Assembly (NCBI GenBank): GCA_016185705.1
Contig: JACPMZ010000007.1
Span: forward strand, 107,157 to 171,156
Source of the DNA: Candidatus Woesearchaeota archaeon
Lineage (GTDB): Archaea; Nanobdellota; Nanobdellia; Woesearchaeales; UBA10216
Length of the DNA: 64,000 nt
Reading direction: 5' to 3'
Shown here piece after piece: positions 57,344 to 63,675 of this stretch. Every line of letters begins with the position of its first letter. Positions within the stretch are counted from its first letter, which is position 1. The position numbers and the translations under genes were made by a program. The notes under the pieces were generated by a model, which was given only the letters and a program-made list of their open reading frames with translations, was not told the origin of the DNA and searched no databases.

Positions 57344-58153
57344 TCACAAATCATCAAGCGGGCTCTTGACTTTTTTCAGCTCTTCCGTCGAGACTCTGGT
57401 GTAAATTTGCGTGGTTTGGAGGTTGGCGTGGCCCAGCAGCTCCTGTATTTTGCGGATGTCGGTGCCTGATTCAAGAAGGTGCGTGGCAAAGCTATGGCGC
57501 AGCGTGTGCGGGCTTACCTTTTTCCTTATGCCTGCTTTCAGAGCTGCCCTGGCAACTATTTTCTGCACGTTCCTTGCTGTCATCGGCTGCCCTTTTTTGT
57601 TCGTCAAAAGCAGCCGGTTTTCACTCATATCAGGCATGTAATCCTTAATAGCTGAAATAAGCCCGTCTGAGAGTATTATCAGCCGGTCCTTGTTGCCCTT
57701 GCCTTTCCTCACCCAGCCAATCTTTTCGCTCAATTCAAGGTCATTTAAGCGCAGATTAAGGCATTCTGAGAGCCGAAGCCCGGATGAGTACAAAAGCTTG
57801 ATAATAAGCCTGGATTTGGCGCTTTTAGCGTGTTCTATGAGCCTCCTGACCTCTACCTTTGTTAATACTGCCGGAAGGCGCTTATCGACTTTTGGGGTCT
57901 TCAGGTTGACTATATTTTTCTTAAGCAATCCGTCGTAGAAGAATTTCAATGCAGCTTTCACAAGCGCCACTGATCTGGCAGACAGCTTCCTGTCACCAAT
58001 AAGGTAGCCCAGATAGTACTTTATGTCTTCCTCGACGACAAACTGGGGCTCTTTTTTGATGAATTGGAGAAACTTTTTGTTGTGCAATACGTATGCCATA
58101 ACTGTCCTTTCGCTGAAGCCGCGAAGCTTAAGCTCTGAAACAAGCTCATCCAT
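57344..58153 (-). CDS. xerA: Tyrosine recombinase XerA/XerD-like
   Basis: R..HTLRHSFATHLLESGTDIRKIQELLGHANLQTTQIYTRV with catalytic Tyr. Confidence 0.9.
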   Translation of the reverse strand: MDELVSELKLRGFSERTVMAYVLHNKKFLQFIKKEPQFVVEEDIKYYLGYLIGDRKLSARSVALVKAALKFFYDGLLKKNIVNLKTPKVDKRLPAVLTKVEVRRLIEHAKSAKSRLIIKLLYSSGLRLSECLNLRLNDLELSEKIGWVRKGKGNKDRLIILSDGLISAIKDYMPDMSENRLLLTNKKGQPMTARNVQKIVARAALKAGIRKKVSPHTLRHSFATHLLESGTDIRKIQELLGHANLQTTQIYTRVSTEELKKVKSPLDDL

Positions 58154-59258: not shown

Positions 59259-59708
59259 ATGATGAAAATGCAAAAATTTGAAGAAATAGTGGCGAGCATT
59301 GAGAATACTCTGGCAAAGGCCGGTGTGCAGATGCGTCTGGTTAACGGCCCATACATATCAGACAGCGGTCGCGAAGTCAATTTAGTGCATGGCGGCGAGG
59401 TGGGTGGCGGATTAATAAAGGTTATCCAGGGCCTTAGCCCGGTAATATCTTATGTGCCCTGGCTAACCTTTCAGGAAATGCAGCTGGACAAAATCTATCC
59501 GCTGTCAAGGCTTCCTGAGGATGCCGGACTCCCCAACATATTTACGCCGCGTGAAGAATTTTACCCCGGACTGACTGTAACATTCACCATGCCTGATGGC
59601 AGAGAAGCAGATTTTGACGTTTCCCCTGATGGAATAACACAAAGCTGCTCTAACTTCAGCGATAATTATCAGGAAGCCTTACGCCAGATTCTGAAGTTAC
59701 AACTGTAA
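59259..59708 (+). CDS. Hypothetical protein (149 aa)
   Basis: Long ORF, no recognisable motifs. Confidence 0.4.
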   Translation: MMKMQKFEEIVASIENTLAKAGVQMRLVNGPYISDSGREVNLVHGGEVGGGLIKVIQGLSPVISYVPWLTFQEMQLDKIYPLSRLPEDAGLPNIFTPREEFYPGLTVTFTMPDGREADFDVSPDGITQSCSNFSDNYQEALRQILKLQL

Positions 59709-59783
59709 CTGCGCTTTGCCGATTCTCCTTGCCTATAAGACGGTCAAACAGGGAGTTTATAAGATTAAAATGGTGATGGTGAA

Positions 59784-60116
59784 ATGATACGAGACAAGTG
59801 TGATGAGTGTGGCGGCAAGCTGGTTGATAGGCAGGTTGACTTCGGCATGTTCGGCGTTAGCTTGGGCAAGTTCCCTGCTGAGGTGTGCACCAAATGCGGC
59901 GAGGAAGTCTTCACAGAGGAAACCTCTGCCAAGATTGACGGAGCAGCTAAGGAAAAGGGCTTGTACGGACTTGCAGCGTCTACTACTGTTGGCAAGTCAG
60001 GCGACTCCCTCGATATCCGCATCAGCAAGAAGGTTGCCGAGTTTGTCAACCTCCAGAAAGGCCAGACTGTTATGGTGCATCCTGAAGGCAAGAACAGGAT
60101 AGTTATCACGTTTTAG
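59784..60116 (+). CDS. Zinc-ribbon + AbrB/SpoVT-like domain protein (antitoxin-like)
   Basis: CDECGG...CTKCGEEVF then ISKKVAEFVNLQKGQTVMVHPEGKNRIVI. Confidence 0.5.
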   Translation: MIRDKCDECGGKLVDRQVDFGMFGVSLGKFPAEVCTKCGEEVFTEETSAKIDGAAKEKGLYGLAASTTVGKSGDSLDIRISKKVAEFVNLQKGQTVMVHPEGKNRIVITF

Positions 60117-60124
60117 CTAGGTCC

Positions 60125-60200
60125 CCCCGCCCGGAAAGGGGAAAAAGAGGGGTTCCTGGCGGGTTTTGCGGCAGCGATATGTTTTTATAGTAGCTAACCT
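60125..60200. promoter_or_regulatory. Repeated promoter/operator module 1 (GGAAAGGGGAAAAAGAGGG ... GGCAGCGATATGTTTTTATAGTAG, TATA about 25 nt before ATG)
   Basis: Near-identical modules at 60655-60733 and 61193-61255. Confidence 0.45.
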
Positions 60201-60211
60201 TTAAACAGGAT

Positions 60212-60391
60212 ATGACTGTCACTATAACTATCAACAAGGAAGCAATTGCTGACCTTGTAAAGCTGAAAGACGAGTTTAATTCTGTAGTTGAATCCCTTGA
60301 ACTTATGGCTGACAAGGAATTTATCGACTCCTACCAAAGGTCAAAGGAGCAGATAAAAAAGAGGGAGTTTGTCGATTGGAATGCCCTATAA
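60212..60391 (+). CDS. Small antitoxin (59 aa) of RelE cassette 1
   Basis: Leaderless-type ATG after TATA; stop overlaps toxin start. Confidence 0.5.
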   Translation: MTVTITINKEAIADLVKLKDEFNSVVESLELMADKEFIDSYQRSKEQIKKREFVDWNAL

Positions 60392-60629
60392 GATTCTGCC
60401 GACTAAAGAGTTCTCTAAGGACTTTGGTAAGCTTGATGCGCACCTTCAGGATAGAATAAAGAGGAAAATTGAGGAGGTTGCGGAAGACCCGACAAGATAC
60501 AAGCATCTTCATTACGACCTTGCCGGCAGCTGCCGCCTGTGGATAGGCAAGCTCAGAATCATCTTTTCCTACAACGCAAGCAAACAGGAGCTGTATCTTG
60601 AAAAGGTAGTAGTCGGGCACGAGTATTAA
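60381..60629 (+). CDS. relE: RelE/ParE-family toxin, cassette 1
   Basis: MPYKILPTKEFSKDF...CRLWIGKLRIIFSYNASKQELYLEKVVVGHEY. Confidence 0.7.
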   Translation: MPYKILPTKEFSKDFGKLDAHLQDRIKRKIEEVAEDPTRYKHLHYDLAGSCRLWIGKLRIIFSYNASKQELYLEKVVVGHEY

Positions 60630-60734
60630 GCGAAAGTTGATTTCTACGTGTTCCAGCCGGCTCCGGAAGGGGAAAAGAGGGAATTCACGACGGCAGCGAT
60701 AGGTTTTTATAGTAGGACGCGTTTAAATACGTGT

Positions 60735-60929
60735 ATGGAAGCACTAACGTTAGAGCGGGTGTATGAGGACGTCAAGGAAATAAAGCAGCAGCTTAAGAGG
60801 TTAAACCTAATGCTTGAAGAAGACTTTGAACTAAGCGAGCACGCTAAAAAGGAGCTGGCAGAGTCCAGAAAAATGCCGCGGGCAGAATACGTCAGCCAAA
60901 AAGAGATGGAAAAAGAGTTCTTAAGATGA
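60735..60929 (+). CDS. Antitoxin (64 aa) of RelE cassette 2
   Basis: Start at internal Met after TATA module; helical; stop overlaps toxin start. Confidence 0.55.
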   Translation: MEALTLERVYEDVKEIKQQLKRLNLMLEEDFELSEHAKKELAESRKMPRAEYVSQKEMEKEFLR

Positions 60930-61186
60930 CTTACTCTGTTGAGTGGCATCCTAAAGTCAGAAAGTTCCTGCGCAAATTGCCAGAAGAAATGTCAGCCAGG
61001 ATTGTGCTTAAAGTAAAGGAATCCGCAGGAGACCCTTTCCGCTACCTTGAGCATTATGAAGGCAAAGACCACTACAAGCTCAGGGTTGGCGACTACAGAC
61101 TGCTGATTGATGTTGATTTTAAAAACAAAGTTCTGCTGGTGCAGGTAGCTGGCCACAGGGGAAACATCTACAAACATCCTCAATAA
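60926..61186 (+). CDS. relE: RelE/ParE-family toxin, cassette 2
   Basis: MTYSVEWHPKVRKFLRKLP...DYRLLIDVDFKNKVLLVQVAGHRGNIY. Confidence 0.7.
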   Translation: MTYSVEWHPKVRKFLRKLPEEMSARIVLKVKESAGDPFRYLEHYEGKDHYKLRVGDYRLLIDVDFKNKVLLVQVAGHRGNIYKHPQ

Positions 61187-62035
61187 TGGCCTGCTCAGCG
61201 GCTCCGAAATGGGAAAAGAGGGCAAAAGAAAGCGGTTTATGGGTTTTATGCGCAAGCGATCAAACGAATTAGTTTATGACTTAGGCAGCTTTGGCGCCTC
61301 TCCAGGTTTAGAGAATTGACCTGTGCGCAAGTCGAGTATAACGCCATCGGGTGCTCGAATTATACCTTCGAGTCCTGCTCTTATTATGGCAGCATTGTTG
61401 AAGTGGAAACTTACTTCCCCGCCAAGGGCTGATAATCGCTCAACTTCATTACGTATCCAATCTCGGATACCTTCCAGGCTTGTGAAAGGACCAGTTCCTA
61501 CATACTCGCCCTTTAAAGACGGTGCCTCACTACCTTGAACCCCTACTGAGATAAGGTAAGACTTAGGACCTGTTTGAAAAATCTCTCCTGTGTAGGTTGT
61601 ACCCCTAATAGGCGGGGTGGGTACTGTTTGTCAGGCATAATCGAAGGTAATTCAAGCATAGCCGAAGGTAATTTACCTACGCTTATAAAGTTATCGCTAC
61701 AATCAAACTGCGAGGGGCAAAATACGTATAATACTTCTTATAAGAACCTTTTTGGCTGTTTTCTGGAAAAACCTTCGAAAATGGCGGATTTCTTGCCGGG
61801 ATGCAGGGGCCAGCGGCCAAATATTATCCACAAAACAACCAACAAACCTGCCACGATTACTATTCCCGCTTTAATTGATTTTGGTAGTGACTCTAACGCT
61901 GACATAATTCGATAGAAAGTGTCAAAATTACTTAAACCTTTCGCTCAGAAAAATGGCTGGTTTGGGGTTTTTGGATAGTTTGCAGCTGCGCAGCCAAGCA
62001 AAAACATCAAATCTGCAGGGCATCACCAGCCTAAT

Positions 62036-63429: not shown

Positions 63430-63675
63430 ATGGCTACAATAACCGTCAACGTGGATGATGAAGTGTATGAGCGCTTCAGAAGGATTGCCGCTAAGGAAAG
63501 AAATGGAAAAAAGGGATTTCTTGGCGACGCAATAACTGATAATATGAAAAAATACGTTAGGGAAAAGGAGCAGGACTCTATTAAGAAACGGCTGCTTTAT
63601 CGAATAAGGAAAGGATACAAGTTAGGCGTTTGGAAAGGCGGGTTCGATCGTGATGCGCTCTATGACAGGCACTAA
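63430..63675 (+). CDS. Ribbon-helix-helix antitoxin (VapB/CopG-like)
   Basis: MATITVNVDDEVYERFRRIAAKE N-terminal strand-helix pattern; followed by PIN gene. Confidence 0.55.
   Translation: MATITVNVDDEVYERFRRIAAKERNGKKGFLGDAITDNMKKYVREKEQDSIKKRLLYRIRKGYKLGVWKGGFDRDALYDRH

What the first reader, a model, noticed from the sequence alone, without database searches (positions are those of the whole stretch)
59784..61260. Tandem RelE cassette array sharing a duplicated promoter-operator module; third module decayed
Three near-identical modules of about 55 bp (CGGAAGGGGAAAAGAGGG-n-GGCAGCGATAGGTTTTTATAGTAG) lie at 60125-60200, 60655-60733 and 61193-61255. Each ends in a TATA-like TTTTTATA about 25 nt before an antitoxin ATG, implying leaderless transcripts. 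Modules 1 and 2 drive antitoxin + RelE pairs (60212-60629 and 60735-61186) with overlapping stop/start codons. Module 3 is followed only by a 23-codon ORF and an open frame without a start codon on the opposite strand (61250-61560), consistent with a degraded third cassette. A Zn-ribbon/AbrB protein precedes the array. This illustrates TA cassette amplification by promoter-plus-gene duplication.
Basis: seen in the sequence. Interest (0 to 1): 0.55.

Follow-up and report, generated by a model that had tools for sequence, protein, structure and literature searches.

The report
Shared junction repeat between toxin-antitoxin cassettes
Three copies of a short non-coding repeat separate unrelated toxin-antitoxin gene pairs in a groundwater DPANN archaeon; the repeat was not made by duplicating a gene pair, and it looks like a promoter-carrying junction at which different cassettes are joined and swapped in related strains.

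Summary
The three modules are real. They occur only here in the 64 kb, and no shuffle reproduces them. Both cassettes encode RelE/ParE-type toxins behind small antitoxin genes. Modules 1 and 2 carry a BRE/TATA box 30-31 nt upstream of the antitoxin ATG, which is the usual promoter position in this window.

"Promoter-plus-gene duplication" fails. The toxins are 29% identical and the antitoxins are unrelated, yet the module cores are 75-87% identical to each other and 90-91% identical to modules in other genomes.

In related groundwater Woesearchaeota the same ~42-nt core (GTTCCAGCCGGCTCCGGAAGGGGAAAAGAGG..GGTTTCTGGC) flanks other cassettes (hicAB, PIN/RHH, HicB-like/RelE). It always has one orientation, whatever the cassette strand. 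Between strains, identity breaks inside the module: the left side follows the upstream cassette and the right side follows the downstream one.

Best reading: a lineage-specific junction element that supplies a promoter and serves as the recombination point for assembling cassette arrays. It is not an attC. I found no hairpin, no core sites and no integron integrase; the nearby recombinase is XerA.

The "decayed third cassette" is a frameshifted 128-aa gene of unknown function. The Zn-ribbon/AbrB protein is an orphan antitoxin whose DUF4258 toxin gene is truncated.

The parts
57344..58153 (-). XerA-type tyrosine recombinase gene, 1.6 kb left of the array. Candidate trans-acting recombinase only; no link to the module has been shown.
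   Evidence: NCBIfam NF040815 recomb_XerA_Arch scores 261 bits (cut-off 220). The integron-integrase model TIGR02249 scores 226.6, below its cut-off of 265. Pfam gives Phage_integrase + SAM_4. It is 67% identical to the recombinase 2.5 kb on the other side of the array in L004.
59744..59787 (+). 3' remnant (about 14 codons) of a DUF4258-family toxin gene; the rest is deleted.
   Evidence: blastn: L004 3286-3656 matches window 59744-60114 at 88%. In L004/L005 an intact 66-aa DUF4258 gene (PF14076, E = 6.6e-8) overlaps the Zn-ribbon/AbrB gene by ATGA.
59784..60116 (+). Zn-ribbon (YgiT/MqsA-type) + AbrB/SpoVT-like protein; an orphan antitoxin.
   Evidence: TIGR03831 YgiT_finger scores 27.1 bits (cut-off 20.2). 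Weak hits to the MqsA family and to doc_partner, the AbrB-type antidote. Zn-ribbon Pfam hits. Paired with a DUF4258 toxin in L004/L005.
60120..60193 (+). Junction module 1: degenerate core 60127-60167, T-run, BRE-like GCGATA 60174-60179, TATA TTTTTATA 60182-60189.
   Evidence: nhmmer E = 3.9e-16. 91% identical over 47 nt to the L049 module. TATA starts at -30 from ATG 60212.
60212..60391 (+). Antitoxin 1 (59 aa, weak DUF2683-like).
   Evidence: PF10884, E = 0.0022, below cut-off. Overlaps the toxin gene. The single-sequence model shows two helices behind an unstructured N-terminus, pLDDT 74.
60381..60629 (+). RelE/ParE-family toxin 1 (82 aa).
   Evidence: PF05016 scores 21.3 bits (cut-off 23). 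29% identical to RelE2, E = 9e-7. 681 homologues were found; the 120 listed are 72-100% identical, and several are named RelE/ParE toxin.
60648..60715 (+). Junction module 2: best-preserved core 60650-60681, then c2's own promoter region CACGACGGCAGCGATAGG + TATA 60704-60711.
   Evidence: nhmmer E = 3.4e-15. 94-97% identical over 32-34 nt to modules of L008 and L017. TATA starts at -31 from ATG 60735.
60735..60929 (+). Antitoxin 2 (64 aa, helical, no known family).
   Evidence: No Pfam or NCBIfam family. No similarity to antitoxin 1. AF2 model: helices 6-46 and 49-63, pLDDT 82.5. No PDB fold match. Always found upstream of RelE2 homologues.
60926..61186 (+). RelE-family toxin 2 (86 aa).
   Evidence: PF05016 scores 34.5 bits, above cut-off 23. 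PDB hits: 2KHE (3.4e-7), 1WMI_A from P. horikoshii (1.6e-5), Rv2866.
61190..61260 (+). Junction module 3: eroded core plus GGGTTTTATGCGCAAGCGAT; no TATA box. The gene that follows is on the other strand.
   Evidence: nhmmer E = 9.6e-10. Its right arm TTTTATGCGCARGCGA is shared with the terminal module L017d.
61274..61659 (-). Frameshifted gene of a 114-128-aa family of unknown function. Not part of a toxin-antitoxin cassette.
   Evidence: 92% identical to the 128-aa P0129 (E = 4.5e-64). The frame changes in the run at 61614-61617, after MLELPSIMPDKQYPP. The same run length is seen in three independently assembled Logan contigs. No Pfam or NCBIfam hit.

Best explanation
The locus is a small, plastic island of three unrelated type II toxin-antitoxin units on the chromosome of a groundwater Woesearchaeota (DPANN) archaeon. 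The units are joined by a lineage-specific non-coding junction element.

The element has a conserved core of about 42 nt (GTTCCAGCCGGCTCCGGAAGGGGAAAAGAGG-GGTTTCTGGC) and a variable right arm. Where a same-strand cassette follows, the right arm is a BRE/TATA promoter 30-31 nt upstream of the antitoxin ATG, so the next cassette is made as a leaderless transcript.

The array did not arise by tandem duplication of one cassette. Different cassettes were brought together by recombination within the shared core. Sequence to the left of the core travels with the upstream cassette, and sequence to the right travels with the downstream cassette.

Shown: the repeat; the heterology of the cassettes; the same core at the boundaries of other cassettes in about six related strains, in either cassette orientation; different cassette neighbours between strains, with breakpoints inside the module; a promoter consensus at the usual position for this window.

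Inferred: that the TATA boxes fire; that the core is the actual crossover substrate; and whether exchange is homologous or catalysed by a site-specific recombinase such as the neighbouring XerA.
For: - Repeat is real and local.
- Cassettes are heterologous: toxins 29% identical, antitoxins unalignable, coding DNA essentially unaligned while the module aligns.
- Window modules are 75-87% identical to each other but 90-91% identical to modules of other genomes.
- The same core bounds other cassettes:
  - L017: PIN(+) - M - hicA/hicB(-) - M - lipoprotein.
  - L008/L010: MazE(-) - M - HicB-like/AT2/RelE2(+) - M - PIN_2/RHH_12(-) - M'.
  - L012: RHH_12(-) - M - HicB-like cassette, so the neighbours differ from L010.
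  - L050: hicAB(-) - M - AN1 zinc-finger ORF - AT2/RelE2 - M.
  - L049 and L004: RelE2 - M - 112-aa gene.
- All copies within a locus have the same orientation.
- Breakpoints: L017 and L050 are nearly identical (a few mismatches) through the hicB promoter and the module up to ...TTTCTGGC, then unrelated. L008u and L012u are unrelated upstream, then about 95% identical from ...CCCNGTTCCAG through the TATA box into the gene.
- Cassette homologues outside this clade lack the module, so the module is not an intrinsic part of any cassette.
- Promoter: the GCGATA/TTTTTATA type recurs upstream of other genes. TATA-like octamers upstream of 54 ORFs cluster at -28 to -32, and only 6 of 54 ORFs have an SD-like motif. 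M1 sits at -30 and M2 at -31.
Against: - Only 14 module instances from about six strains, mostly on short contigs. No complete genome could be scanned, so copy number per genome and restriction to cassette boundaries are unknown.
- Right-hand breakpoints are not at one exact nucleotide. They fall after AGAGGG in window M2 and after CTGGC/CTGGCG in other pairs. This fits homologous or imprecise exchange better than a single precise crossover point.
- No dedicated recombinase was identified; XerA is a housekeeping enzyme.
- No transcript data.
- Strong conservation of the core across species could instead reflect a protein-binding regulatory function, with the recombination pattern a by-product.
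Confidence: 0.6

Rival explanations
1. First reader's model. One promoter + antitoxin + RelE cassette was duplicated in tandem. The copies diverged, and a third copy decayed.
For: Three direct repeats spaced 531 and 541 nt apart. Both toxins belong to the RelE/ParE superfamily. Module 3 is the most eroded copy.
Against: The antitoxins have no detectable similarity and the toxins are 29% identical, while the non-coding modules are 75-92% identical. Non-coding DNA should not outlast coding DNA. Window modules are closer to modules of other genomes than to each other. The module flanks unrelated cassettes on either strand elsewhere. RelE1 homologues in other Nanoarchaeia lack it. The 'third cassette' is a frameshifted, unrelated gene.
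Confidence: 0.05
2. The core is mainly a cis-regulatory site: an upstream activating or repressing sequence bound by one trans-acting factor that co-regulates many small stress or toxin-antitoxin operons. Its conservation reflects selection for binding. Cassette mosaicism is a side effect of having repeats.
For: The core lies at a roughly fixed distance upstream of a BRE/TATA box in most copies. It contains a conserved imperfect palindrome, TTCC-AGCCGGCT-CC-GGAA (alignments). Core identity between species (94-97% over 32-34 nt) exceeds that of the adjacent coding DNA (about 82%). The two antitoxins are unrelated, and AT2 shows no recognisable DNA-binding fold, so a separate regulator is plausible.
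Against: A 42-60-nt stretch at 85-95% identity is far longer than a typical binding site and indicates common descent. Full cores also sit where no same-strand gene follows: window M3, L008d and L017u. No candidate regulator was identified.
Confidence: 0.2
3. Xer-dependent cassette modules, analogous to Acinetobacter pdif/dif modules. The core holds a XerA binding and crossover site, and the neighbouring XerA moves the cassettes.
For: A XerA gene lies 1.6 kb from the array here and 2.5 kb from it in L004. In distant Nanoarchaeia a RelE1-type cassette sits next to a XerA-type gene. The core contains 6-nt inverted arms, TTCCAG/CCGGAA, around a 6-nt spacer, CCGGCT (sequence).
Against: The palindrome is short: only about 7 of 11 positions match if the arms are extended to 11 nt, which by my own rough estimate is within chance. 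It does not resemble published bacterial or archaeal dif sites, described as 11-6-11 inverted repeats sharing many positions with the bacterial consensus (PMC2958812). dif modules are bounded by sites in alternating orientation, whereas these are direct repeats. XerA proximity in the window and in L004 is a single syntenic observation.
Confidence: 0.08
4. An attC-type integron cassette array lacking its integrase (a CALIN), as reported for Archaea including Nanoarchaeota.
For: The cassettes are toxin-antitoxin units bounded by similar direct repeats. Toxin-antitoxin cassettes are common in integrons, and archaeal integrons are known (PMC9668308).
Against: The modules do not fold. DNA fold z-scores are +0.7 to +1.7 against shuffles. 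The consensus fold of 12 copies gives only a trivial 4-bp stem. No RYYYAAC or GTTRRRY core site occurs on either strand in any of 12 instances. The only nearby tyrosine recombinase is XerA, 269 aa, below the integron-integrase cut-off.
Confidence: 0.03
5. A small non-autonomous mobile element (MITE-like) with an outward-facing promoter. It inserts into intergenic DNA and happens to land between toxin-antitoxin genes.
For: Short, multi-copy, lineage-restricted and intergenic, and it carries a promoter.
Against: No consistent terminal inverted repeats, and I saw no target-site duplications on inspection. All copies within an array point the same way. There are three copies within 1.2 kb and none in the other 63 kb. 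Breakpoints between strains fall inside the element, not at its ends.
Confidence: 0.04

Closest known systems
Integron cassette arrays and CALINs, including archaeal integrons (Ghaly et al. 2022, PMC9668308) and the toxin-antitoxin-rich Vibrio superintegron
   Same: Small, often promoter-bearing toxin-antitoxin cassettes in an array. Each boundary is marked by a similar direct repeat. Cassette content, order and orientation differ between strains. Repeats within a lineage resemble each other.
   Different: The repeat has no attC hairpin and no R''/R' core sites. No IntI was found. The repeat itself carries a BRE/TATA promoter for the next cassette, rather than relying on a single Pc promoter. 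Breakpoints are not at one fixed nucleotide.
Acinetobacter pdif / dif modules (e.g. PMC6449649, PMC13141974)
   Same: Discrete modules, frequently toxin-antitoxin pairs, bounded by short recombination sites and shuffled between replicons. A housekeeping Xer recombinase is the presumed catalyst, and a XerA gene lies beside this array.
   Different: pdif sites are 28-bp XerC/XerD sites in alternating orientation. Here the repeats are about 42-80 nt, direct, and unlike the published dif descriptions. The setting is a chromosome of a DPANN archaeon. No evidence links XerA to the core.
Archaeal RelBE-type type II toxin-antitoxin systems (aRelE/aRelB of Pyrococcus horikoshii, PDB 1WMI)
   Same: RelE2 matches chain 1WMI_A and other RelE-type toxins. 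A short helical antitoxin gene lies upstream and overlaps the toxin gene. From my own knowledge, aRelB is an extended helical protein without a classical DNA-binding domain, as the AT2 model suggests here.
   Different: The antitoxins belong to no described family. In some strains the c2 operon has an extra HicB-like first gene. Nothing is known about activity.
Promoter-bearing intergenic repeats such as Neisseria Correia elements, REP/BIME and ERIC (from my own knowledge, not tested)
   Same: Short multi-copy intergenic sequences that can supply promoters or terminators and act as substrates for recombination.
   Different: Those elements have terminal inverted repeats or stem-loops and are scattered genome-wide. 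This element has neither, and it is clustered at cassette boundaries in the DNA available.

Membership tests
Type II toxin-antitoxin, RelE/ParE superfamily | Toxin matches the RelE/ParE profile or fold | tested here: met
   RelE2 scores 34.5 bits on PF05016 (cut-off 23) and matches PDB 2KHE, 1WMI_A and 3G5O_B. RelE1 scores 21.3 bits, just below the cut-off, but is 29% identical to RelE2 at E = 9e-7, and its close homologues are named RelE/ParE by NCBI and JGI.
Type II toxin-antitoxin, RelE/ParE superfamily | Small antitoxin gene immediately upstream, translationally coupled or overlapping | tested here: met
   AT1 (60212-60391) overlaps RelE1 (start 60381). AT2 (60735-60929) overlaps RelE2 (start 60926) by ATGA. 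The pairing is conserved in other genomes.
Type II toxin-antitoxin, RelE/ParE superfamily | Toxin activity (ribosome-dependent mRNA cleavage) neutralised by the antitoxin | not testable with these tools
   Requires expression and rescue assays.
   Antitoxins give no alignment and toxins are 29% identical. Modules are closer to modules of other genomes (90-91%) than to each other (75-87%).
Integron / attC cassette array | attC site: imperfect palindrome folding into a hairpin with R''-L''/L'-R' boxes | tested here: not met
   DNA folds are no better than shuffles, z = +0.7 to +1.7. Consensus folding of 12 copies gives one trivial 4-bp stem.
Integron / attC cassette array | Core sites RYYYAAC ... 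GTTRRRY at the ends of the site | tested here: not met
   Neither motif occurs on either strand in any of 12 instances with flanks.
Integron / attC cassette array | Integron integrase (IntI, with the IntI-specific insertion) adjacent to the array | tested here: not met
   The only nearby tyrosine recombinase (57344-58153) passes the XerA model (261 bits against 220) and fails TIGR02249 integron integrase (226.6 against 265; matched as two stretches). It is 269 aa. The rest of the 250-kb contig was not available.
Integron / attC cassette array | Cassettes individually bounded by the repeated site, with variable content and order between strains | tested here: met
Xer-dependent dif modules | Flanking sites are 28-bp dif-like sites (11-6-11 imperfect inverted repeat resembling dif) | tested here: inconclusive
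   The core has TTCCAG-CCGGCT-CCGGAA (arms match at 5 of 6; about 7 of 11 if extended). That is within chance by my own rough estimate, and it is unlike the dif sites described in PMC2958812. The genome's own dif site is unknown.
Xer-dependent dif modules | Sites flanking a module are in opposite (alternating) orientation | tested here: not met
   All modules in a locus are direct repeats on one strand.
MITE-like non-autonomous transposon | Terminal inverted repeats and target-site duplication | tested here: not met
   No consistent terminal inverted repeats in 12 instances, and I saw no duplications at the flanks on inspection. Strain breakpoints lie inside the element.
Archaeal BRE/TATA promoter giving a leaderless mRNA | BRE + TATA box about 25-30 nt upstream of the start codon or transcription start, with no Shine-Dalgarno sequence | tested here: met
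   GCGATA + TTTTTATA at -30 (M1) and -31 (M2). TATA-like octamers upstream of 54 ORFs cluster at -28 to -32, and an SD-like motif is present in only 6 of 54. This is consensus evidence only.
Archaeal BRE/TATA promoter giving a leaderless mRNA | Mapped transcription start at or next to the ATG | not testable with these tools
   Needs 5'-end mapping.

The most novel reading that the evidence does not exclude
A clade of groundwater Woesearchaeota has a previously undescribed gene-cassette system that does not use attC sites. A conserved direct repeat with a core of about 42 nt and a built-in BRE/TATA promoter acts as the site-specific recombination site at which toxin-antitoxin and other small-gene cassettes are captured, excised and re-ordered, possibly by the neighbouring XerA. 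It would be a functional analogue of integrons or dif modules in DPANN archaea.
Probability: 0.2. Interest if true: 0.8.

Novelty: new variant of a known kind. Interest (0 to 1): 0.5.

Why it matters
The toxin-antitoxin genes themselves are ordinary. What matters is the repeat between them.

If the repeat is a recombination junction with its own promoter, it gives a concrete mechanism for how genome-reduced, episymbiotic DPANN archaea assemble and exchange accessory and defence genes. It would be a cassette system that attC-based integron searches cannot see. It would also be testable, using metagenomic read junctions, XerA assays and promoter assays.

Even on the conservative reading, this is a clear case where non-coding repeats between paralogous-looking operons are not evidence of tandem duplication.

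Tried and rejected
- Exact-pattern scans for the promoter half (GCAGCGATANGTTTTTATAGT) found nothing in genome, metagenome or viral collections.
- The core pattern found only chance bacterial hits among species-representative genomes. It found one true metagenome contig, L017. The 18 viral hits to a shorter core pattern were all chance by the nhmmer re-check.
- attC/integron: rejected on fold, core sites and integrase.
- Structured RNA: no Rfam match at E <= 1 and no consensus structure.
- Coding peptide across the module. An ORF reads through it in L005 (103 aa), and window 60648-60929 is open. However, 1-2-nt indels in the A/G runs between copies break every frame, so I rejected this on inspection.
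- tRNA-derived att site: L004 has what looks by eye like a tRNA gene next to the island (not confirmed with a tRNA finder), and its 3' end does not resemble the module.
- Module as an intrinsic part of cassette 1 or of hicAB: rejected, since homologues in L036-L048 and L051-L055 lack it.
- Extending the source contig beyond 64 kb failed, because the last RHH protein is not on record. One look-up returned no DNA.
- No similarity to known plasmids or phages.
- The AT2 fold search in the PDB gave nothing.
- The sigma-70 promoter/terminator scanner was not used, because the organism is archaeal.
Full report
**Context.** The window is archaeal chromosomal DNA. It encodes aCPSF1/FttA, Kae1, IleRS and ThrRS. 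Antitoxin 2 is 100% identical to a protein of 'Candidatus Woesearchaeota archaeon' on a 250-kb contig. This is therefore a DPANN archaeon. Related sequences come from groundwater metagenomes.

**Observation.** Reading 59400-62000 and repeat finding confirm three direct copies of a non-coding module.
- Module 1 is at about 60120-60193, module 2 at 60648-60715 and module 3 at 61190-61260.
- The purine box GGGAAAAGAGGG (at most 1 mismatch) occurs three times in 64 kb, all here. The expectation is 0.25, and 0 of 100 shuffles reach 3.
- The 24-nt promoter half occurs only in modules 1 and 2.
- The left half, GGCTCCGRAANGGGAAAAGAGGG, is best kept in modules 2 and 3.
- A profile of nine instances finds exactly these three sites in the window.
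- Module 3 shares the core and GCGCAAGCGAT but then diverges, and it has no TATA box.

**Genes.**
- RelE2 (60926-61186) passes PF05016 and matches solved RelE-type toxins.
- RelE1 (60381-60629) is just below the Pfam cut-off. It is 29% identical to RelE2 (E = 9e-7). A search found 681 homologues; the 120 listed are 72-100% identical, and several are named RelE/ParE.
- Both toxin genes are preceded by small overlapping genes. AT1 (60212-60391) is weakly DUF2683-like. AT2 (60735-60929) has no family.
- The two antitoxins show no similarity to each other.
- AT2 models as a long helix plus a short helix, with no DNA-binding fold and no PDB match. AT1 models as two helices behind a disordered N-terminus.
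- The 110-aa protein ahead of the array (59784-60116) has a YgiT/MqsA-type zinc finger and an AbrB-type 'doc partner' region.
- In the related genome L004/L005 its orthologue is 88% identical in DNA and is preceded by an overlapping DUF4258 toxin gene. In the window only about the last 14 codons of that toxin gene remain (59744-59787). The Zn-ribbon/AbrB protein is therefore an orphan antitoxin.

**Promoter.** Modules 1 and 2 end in GCGATA-N2-TTTTTATA. The GCGAWA + TATA pattern recurs upstream of other genes in the window: 9 matches against 2.1 expected. TATA-like octamers upstream of 54 non-overlapping ORFs cluster at -28 to -32 from the ATG, and only 6 of 54 ORFs have an SD-like motif. M1 sits at -30 and M2 at -31.

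**Why it is not a duplication of promoter plus gene.** The coding parts of the two cassettes barely align, while the modules are 75-92% identical. The window's modules are also closer to modules in other genomes (90-91%) than to each other (75-87%). Homologues of RelE1 in other Nanoarchaeia (L036-L048) have different upstream and downstream DNA and no module. hicAB homologues at about 80% identity in L051-L055 also lack it. The module is therefore independent of any one cassette.

**The module elsewhere.**
- L008/L010 (GCA_964365325 and Hainich contigs): MazE(-) - M - HicB-like/AT2/RelE2(+) - M - PIN_2/RHH_12(-) - M'.
- L012: the RHH_12 promoter is followed by M and then the HicB-like cassette, so the neighbours differ from L010.
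- L017, found by a DNA pattern scan: PIN(+) - M - hicA/hicB on the opposite strand - M - lipoprotein gene.
- L050: hicAB(-) - M - AN1 zinc-finger ORF - c2 promoter without a core - AT2/RelE2 - M.
- L049 and L004: RelE2 - M - a 112-aa gene, which is truncated in L004.
- L004/L005: an extra 103-aa ORF lies between the Zn-ribbon/AbrB gene and M, and RelE2 carries a 148-nt internal deletion.
- All modules within a locus point the same way, whichever strand the cassette is on.

**Alignment and breakpoints.** The alignment of 14 instances gives a conserved core, GTTCCAGCCGGCTCCGGAAGGGGAAAAAGAGG-(S)GGTTTCTGGC, followed by a T-run and variable right arms. Several right arms are BRE/TATA boxes for the next gene. 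The pairwise alignments are the most informative result.
- L017 and L050 are nearly identical (a few mismatches) through the hicB promoter and the module up to TTTCTGGC, and unrelated beyond.
- L008u and L012u are unrelated upstream. They become about 95% identical from CCCNGTTCCAG through the TATA box into the gene.
- L008 and L049 share RelE2 and the core, then diverge after CTGGCG.
- So the left flank follows the upstream cassette, the right arm follows the downstream cassette, and the shared core is where lineages were joined. That is the signature of recombination at or within the repeat.
- The right-hand limits are not identical in every case. Window M2 switches to c2's own promoter region right after AGAGGG. 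I therefore cannot distinguish homologous exchange from site-specific exchange.

**What it is not.**
- The modules do not fold better than shuffles, have no consensus structure and match no Rfam family.
- None of 12 instances contains RYYYAAC or GTTRRRY on either strand, and there are no consistent terminal inverted repeats. The module is therefore neither an attC site of the kind used to find archaeal integrons (PMC9668308) nor a MITE.
- The only nearby tyrosine recombinase (57344-58153, minus strand) is XerA by NCBIfam and fails the integron-integrase cut-off. Its orthologue lies on the other side of the array in L004, which implies that the island is inverted relative to its flanks.
- The core contains a short imperfect palindrome (TTCCAG-CCGGCT-CCGGAA). 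It is weak, and it is unlike dif sites as described for Archaea. A Xer-dependent, dif-module-like mechanism remains speculative.

**The 'third cassette'.** The minus-strand frame after module 3 is 92% identical to a 128-aa protein (P0129). Five further 114-126-aa homologues were found at E <= 1e-18. The window copy starts at ATG 61659 and changes frame in a C-run at 61614-61617. The same run length is present in three independently assembled contigs. It has no Pfam or NCBIfam match. It is a frameshifted gene of unknown function, not a decayed RelE cassette.

**Verdict.** The toxin-antitoxin and promoter annotations hold. The evolutionary interpretation (amplification by duplication, with a third decayed cassette) does not. 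The best-supported account is a lineage-specific junction element that carries a promoter and marks, and probably mediates, the joining of heterologous cassettes.

**Limits.** There are only 14 instances, mostly on short contigs. No whole-genome scan was possible and there are no transcript or biochemical data. All collection scans and look-ups were exhausted.

Noticed in passing
window 57344-58153 (-): XerA-type tyrosine recombinase gene 1.6 kb from the array. Its orthologue (67% identical) lies 2.5 kb on the opposite side of the array in L004, and the RHH/PIN pair is also on the opposite side. The toxin-antitoxin island is therefore inverted relative to its flanks between the two genomes.
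   Followed up: partly
window 59744-59787 (+): Only about the last 14 codons of a DUF4258-family toxin gene remain upstream of the Zn-ribbon/AbrB gene. The intact toxin is present in L004/L005, next to what looks by eye like a tRNA gene. This leaves an orphan antitoxin here.
   Followed up: yes
window 61274-61659 (-), frameshift at 61614-61617: Gene of a 114-128-aa family of unknown function with a 1-nt frameshift in a C-run after codon 15. The same run is seen in three independent Logan assemblies, so it is probably real: a pseudogene or a programmed shift. Its promoter (AGCGATAACTTTATA, 61684-61698 on the minus strand) resembles the BRE/TATA half of modules 1 and 2.
   Followed up: partly
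L004 4195-4306; L005 1244-1355: In the related genome the RelE2 toxin gene carries a 148-nt internal deletion (equivalent to window 60952-61099), while the antitoxin AT2 is intact. This is a second case of toxin loss with antitoxin retention in the island.
   Followed up: partly
L036-L045 (about 4835-6342 in L036): In distant Nanoarchaeia a close homologue of the AT1/RelE1 cassette, plus a 65-aa ORF, sits immediately upstream of a XerA-type recombinase gene (NF040815, 274 bits). No module is present there. The recurrence of toxin-antitoxin cassettes next to xerA may or may not be meaningful.
   Followed up: no
window 63430-63675 (+) and downstream: An RHH-type antitoxin-like gene (weak FitA-like RHH hit). 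It is homologous to the 89-aa gene paired with a PIN toxin in L004 and L008. This is another toxin-antitoxin locus 2 kb beyond the array, and it has no module.
   Followed up: no
window 60199-60206 and 60722-60729: A second conserved TATA-like box (TTTAAACA / TTTAAATA) lies 6 nt upstream of both antitoxin ATGs, inside the region shared by modules 1 and 2. Its function is unknown.
   Followed up: no
L008 3834-4004; L012 137-307; L049 2-175: In some strains the AT2/RelE2 operon has an additional first gene, a 56-aa HicB-like/UPF0150 protein overlapping AT2, giving a three-gene unit.
   Followed up: no
window, 54 ORFs overall: TATA-like octamers cluster at -28 to -32 from start codons, and SD-like motifs are rare (6 of 54). 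This suggests that leaderless mRNAs are the norm in this Woesearchaeote.
   Followed up: partly
window 60648-60929 (+): A GTG-initiated 93-aa ORF reads through module 2 in frame with AT2. In L005 a 103-aa ORF likewise reads through the module to a TAG just after the TATA box. These are probably gene-calling artefacts, because indels between copies break the frame.
   Followed up: partly
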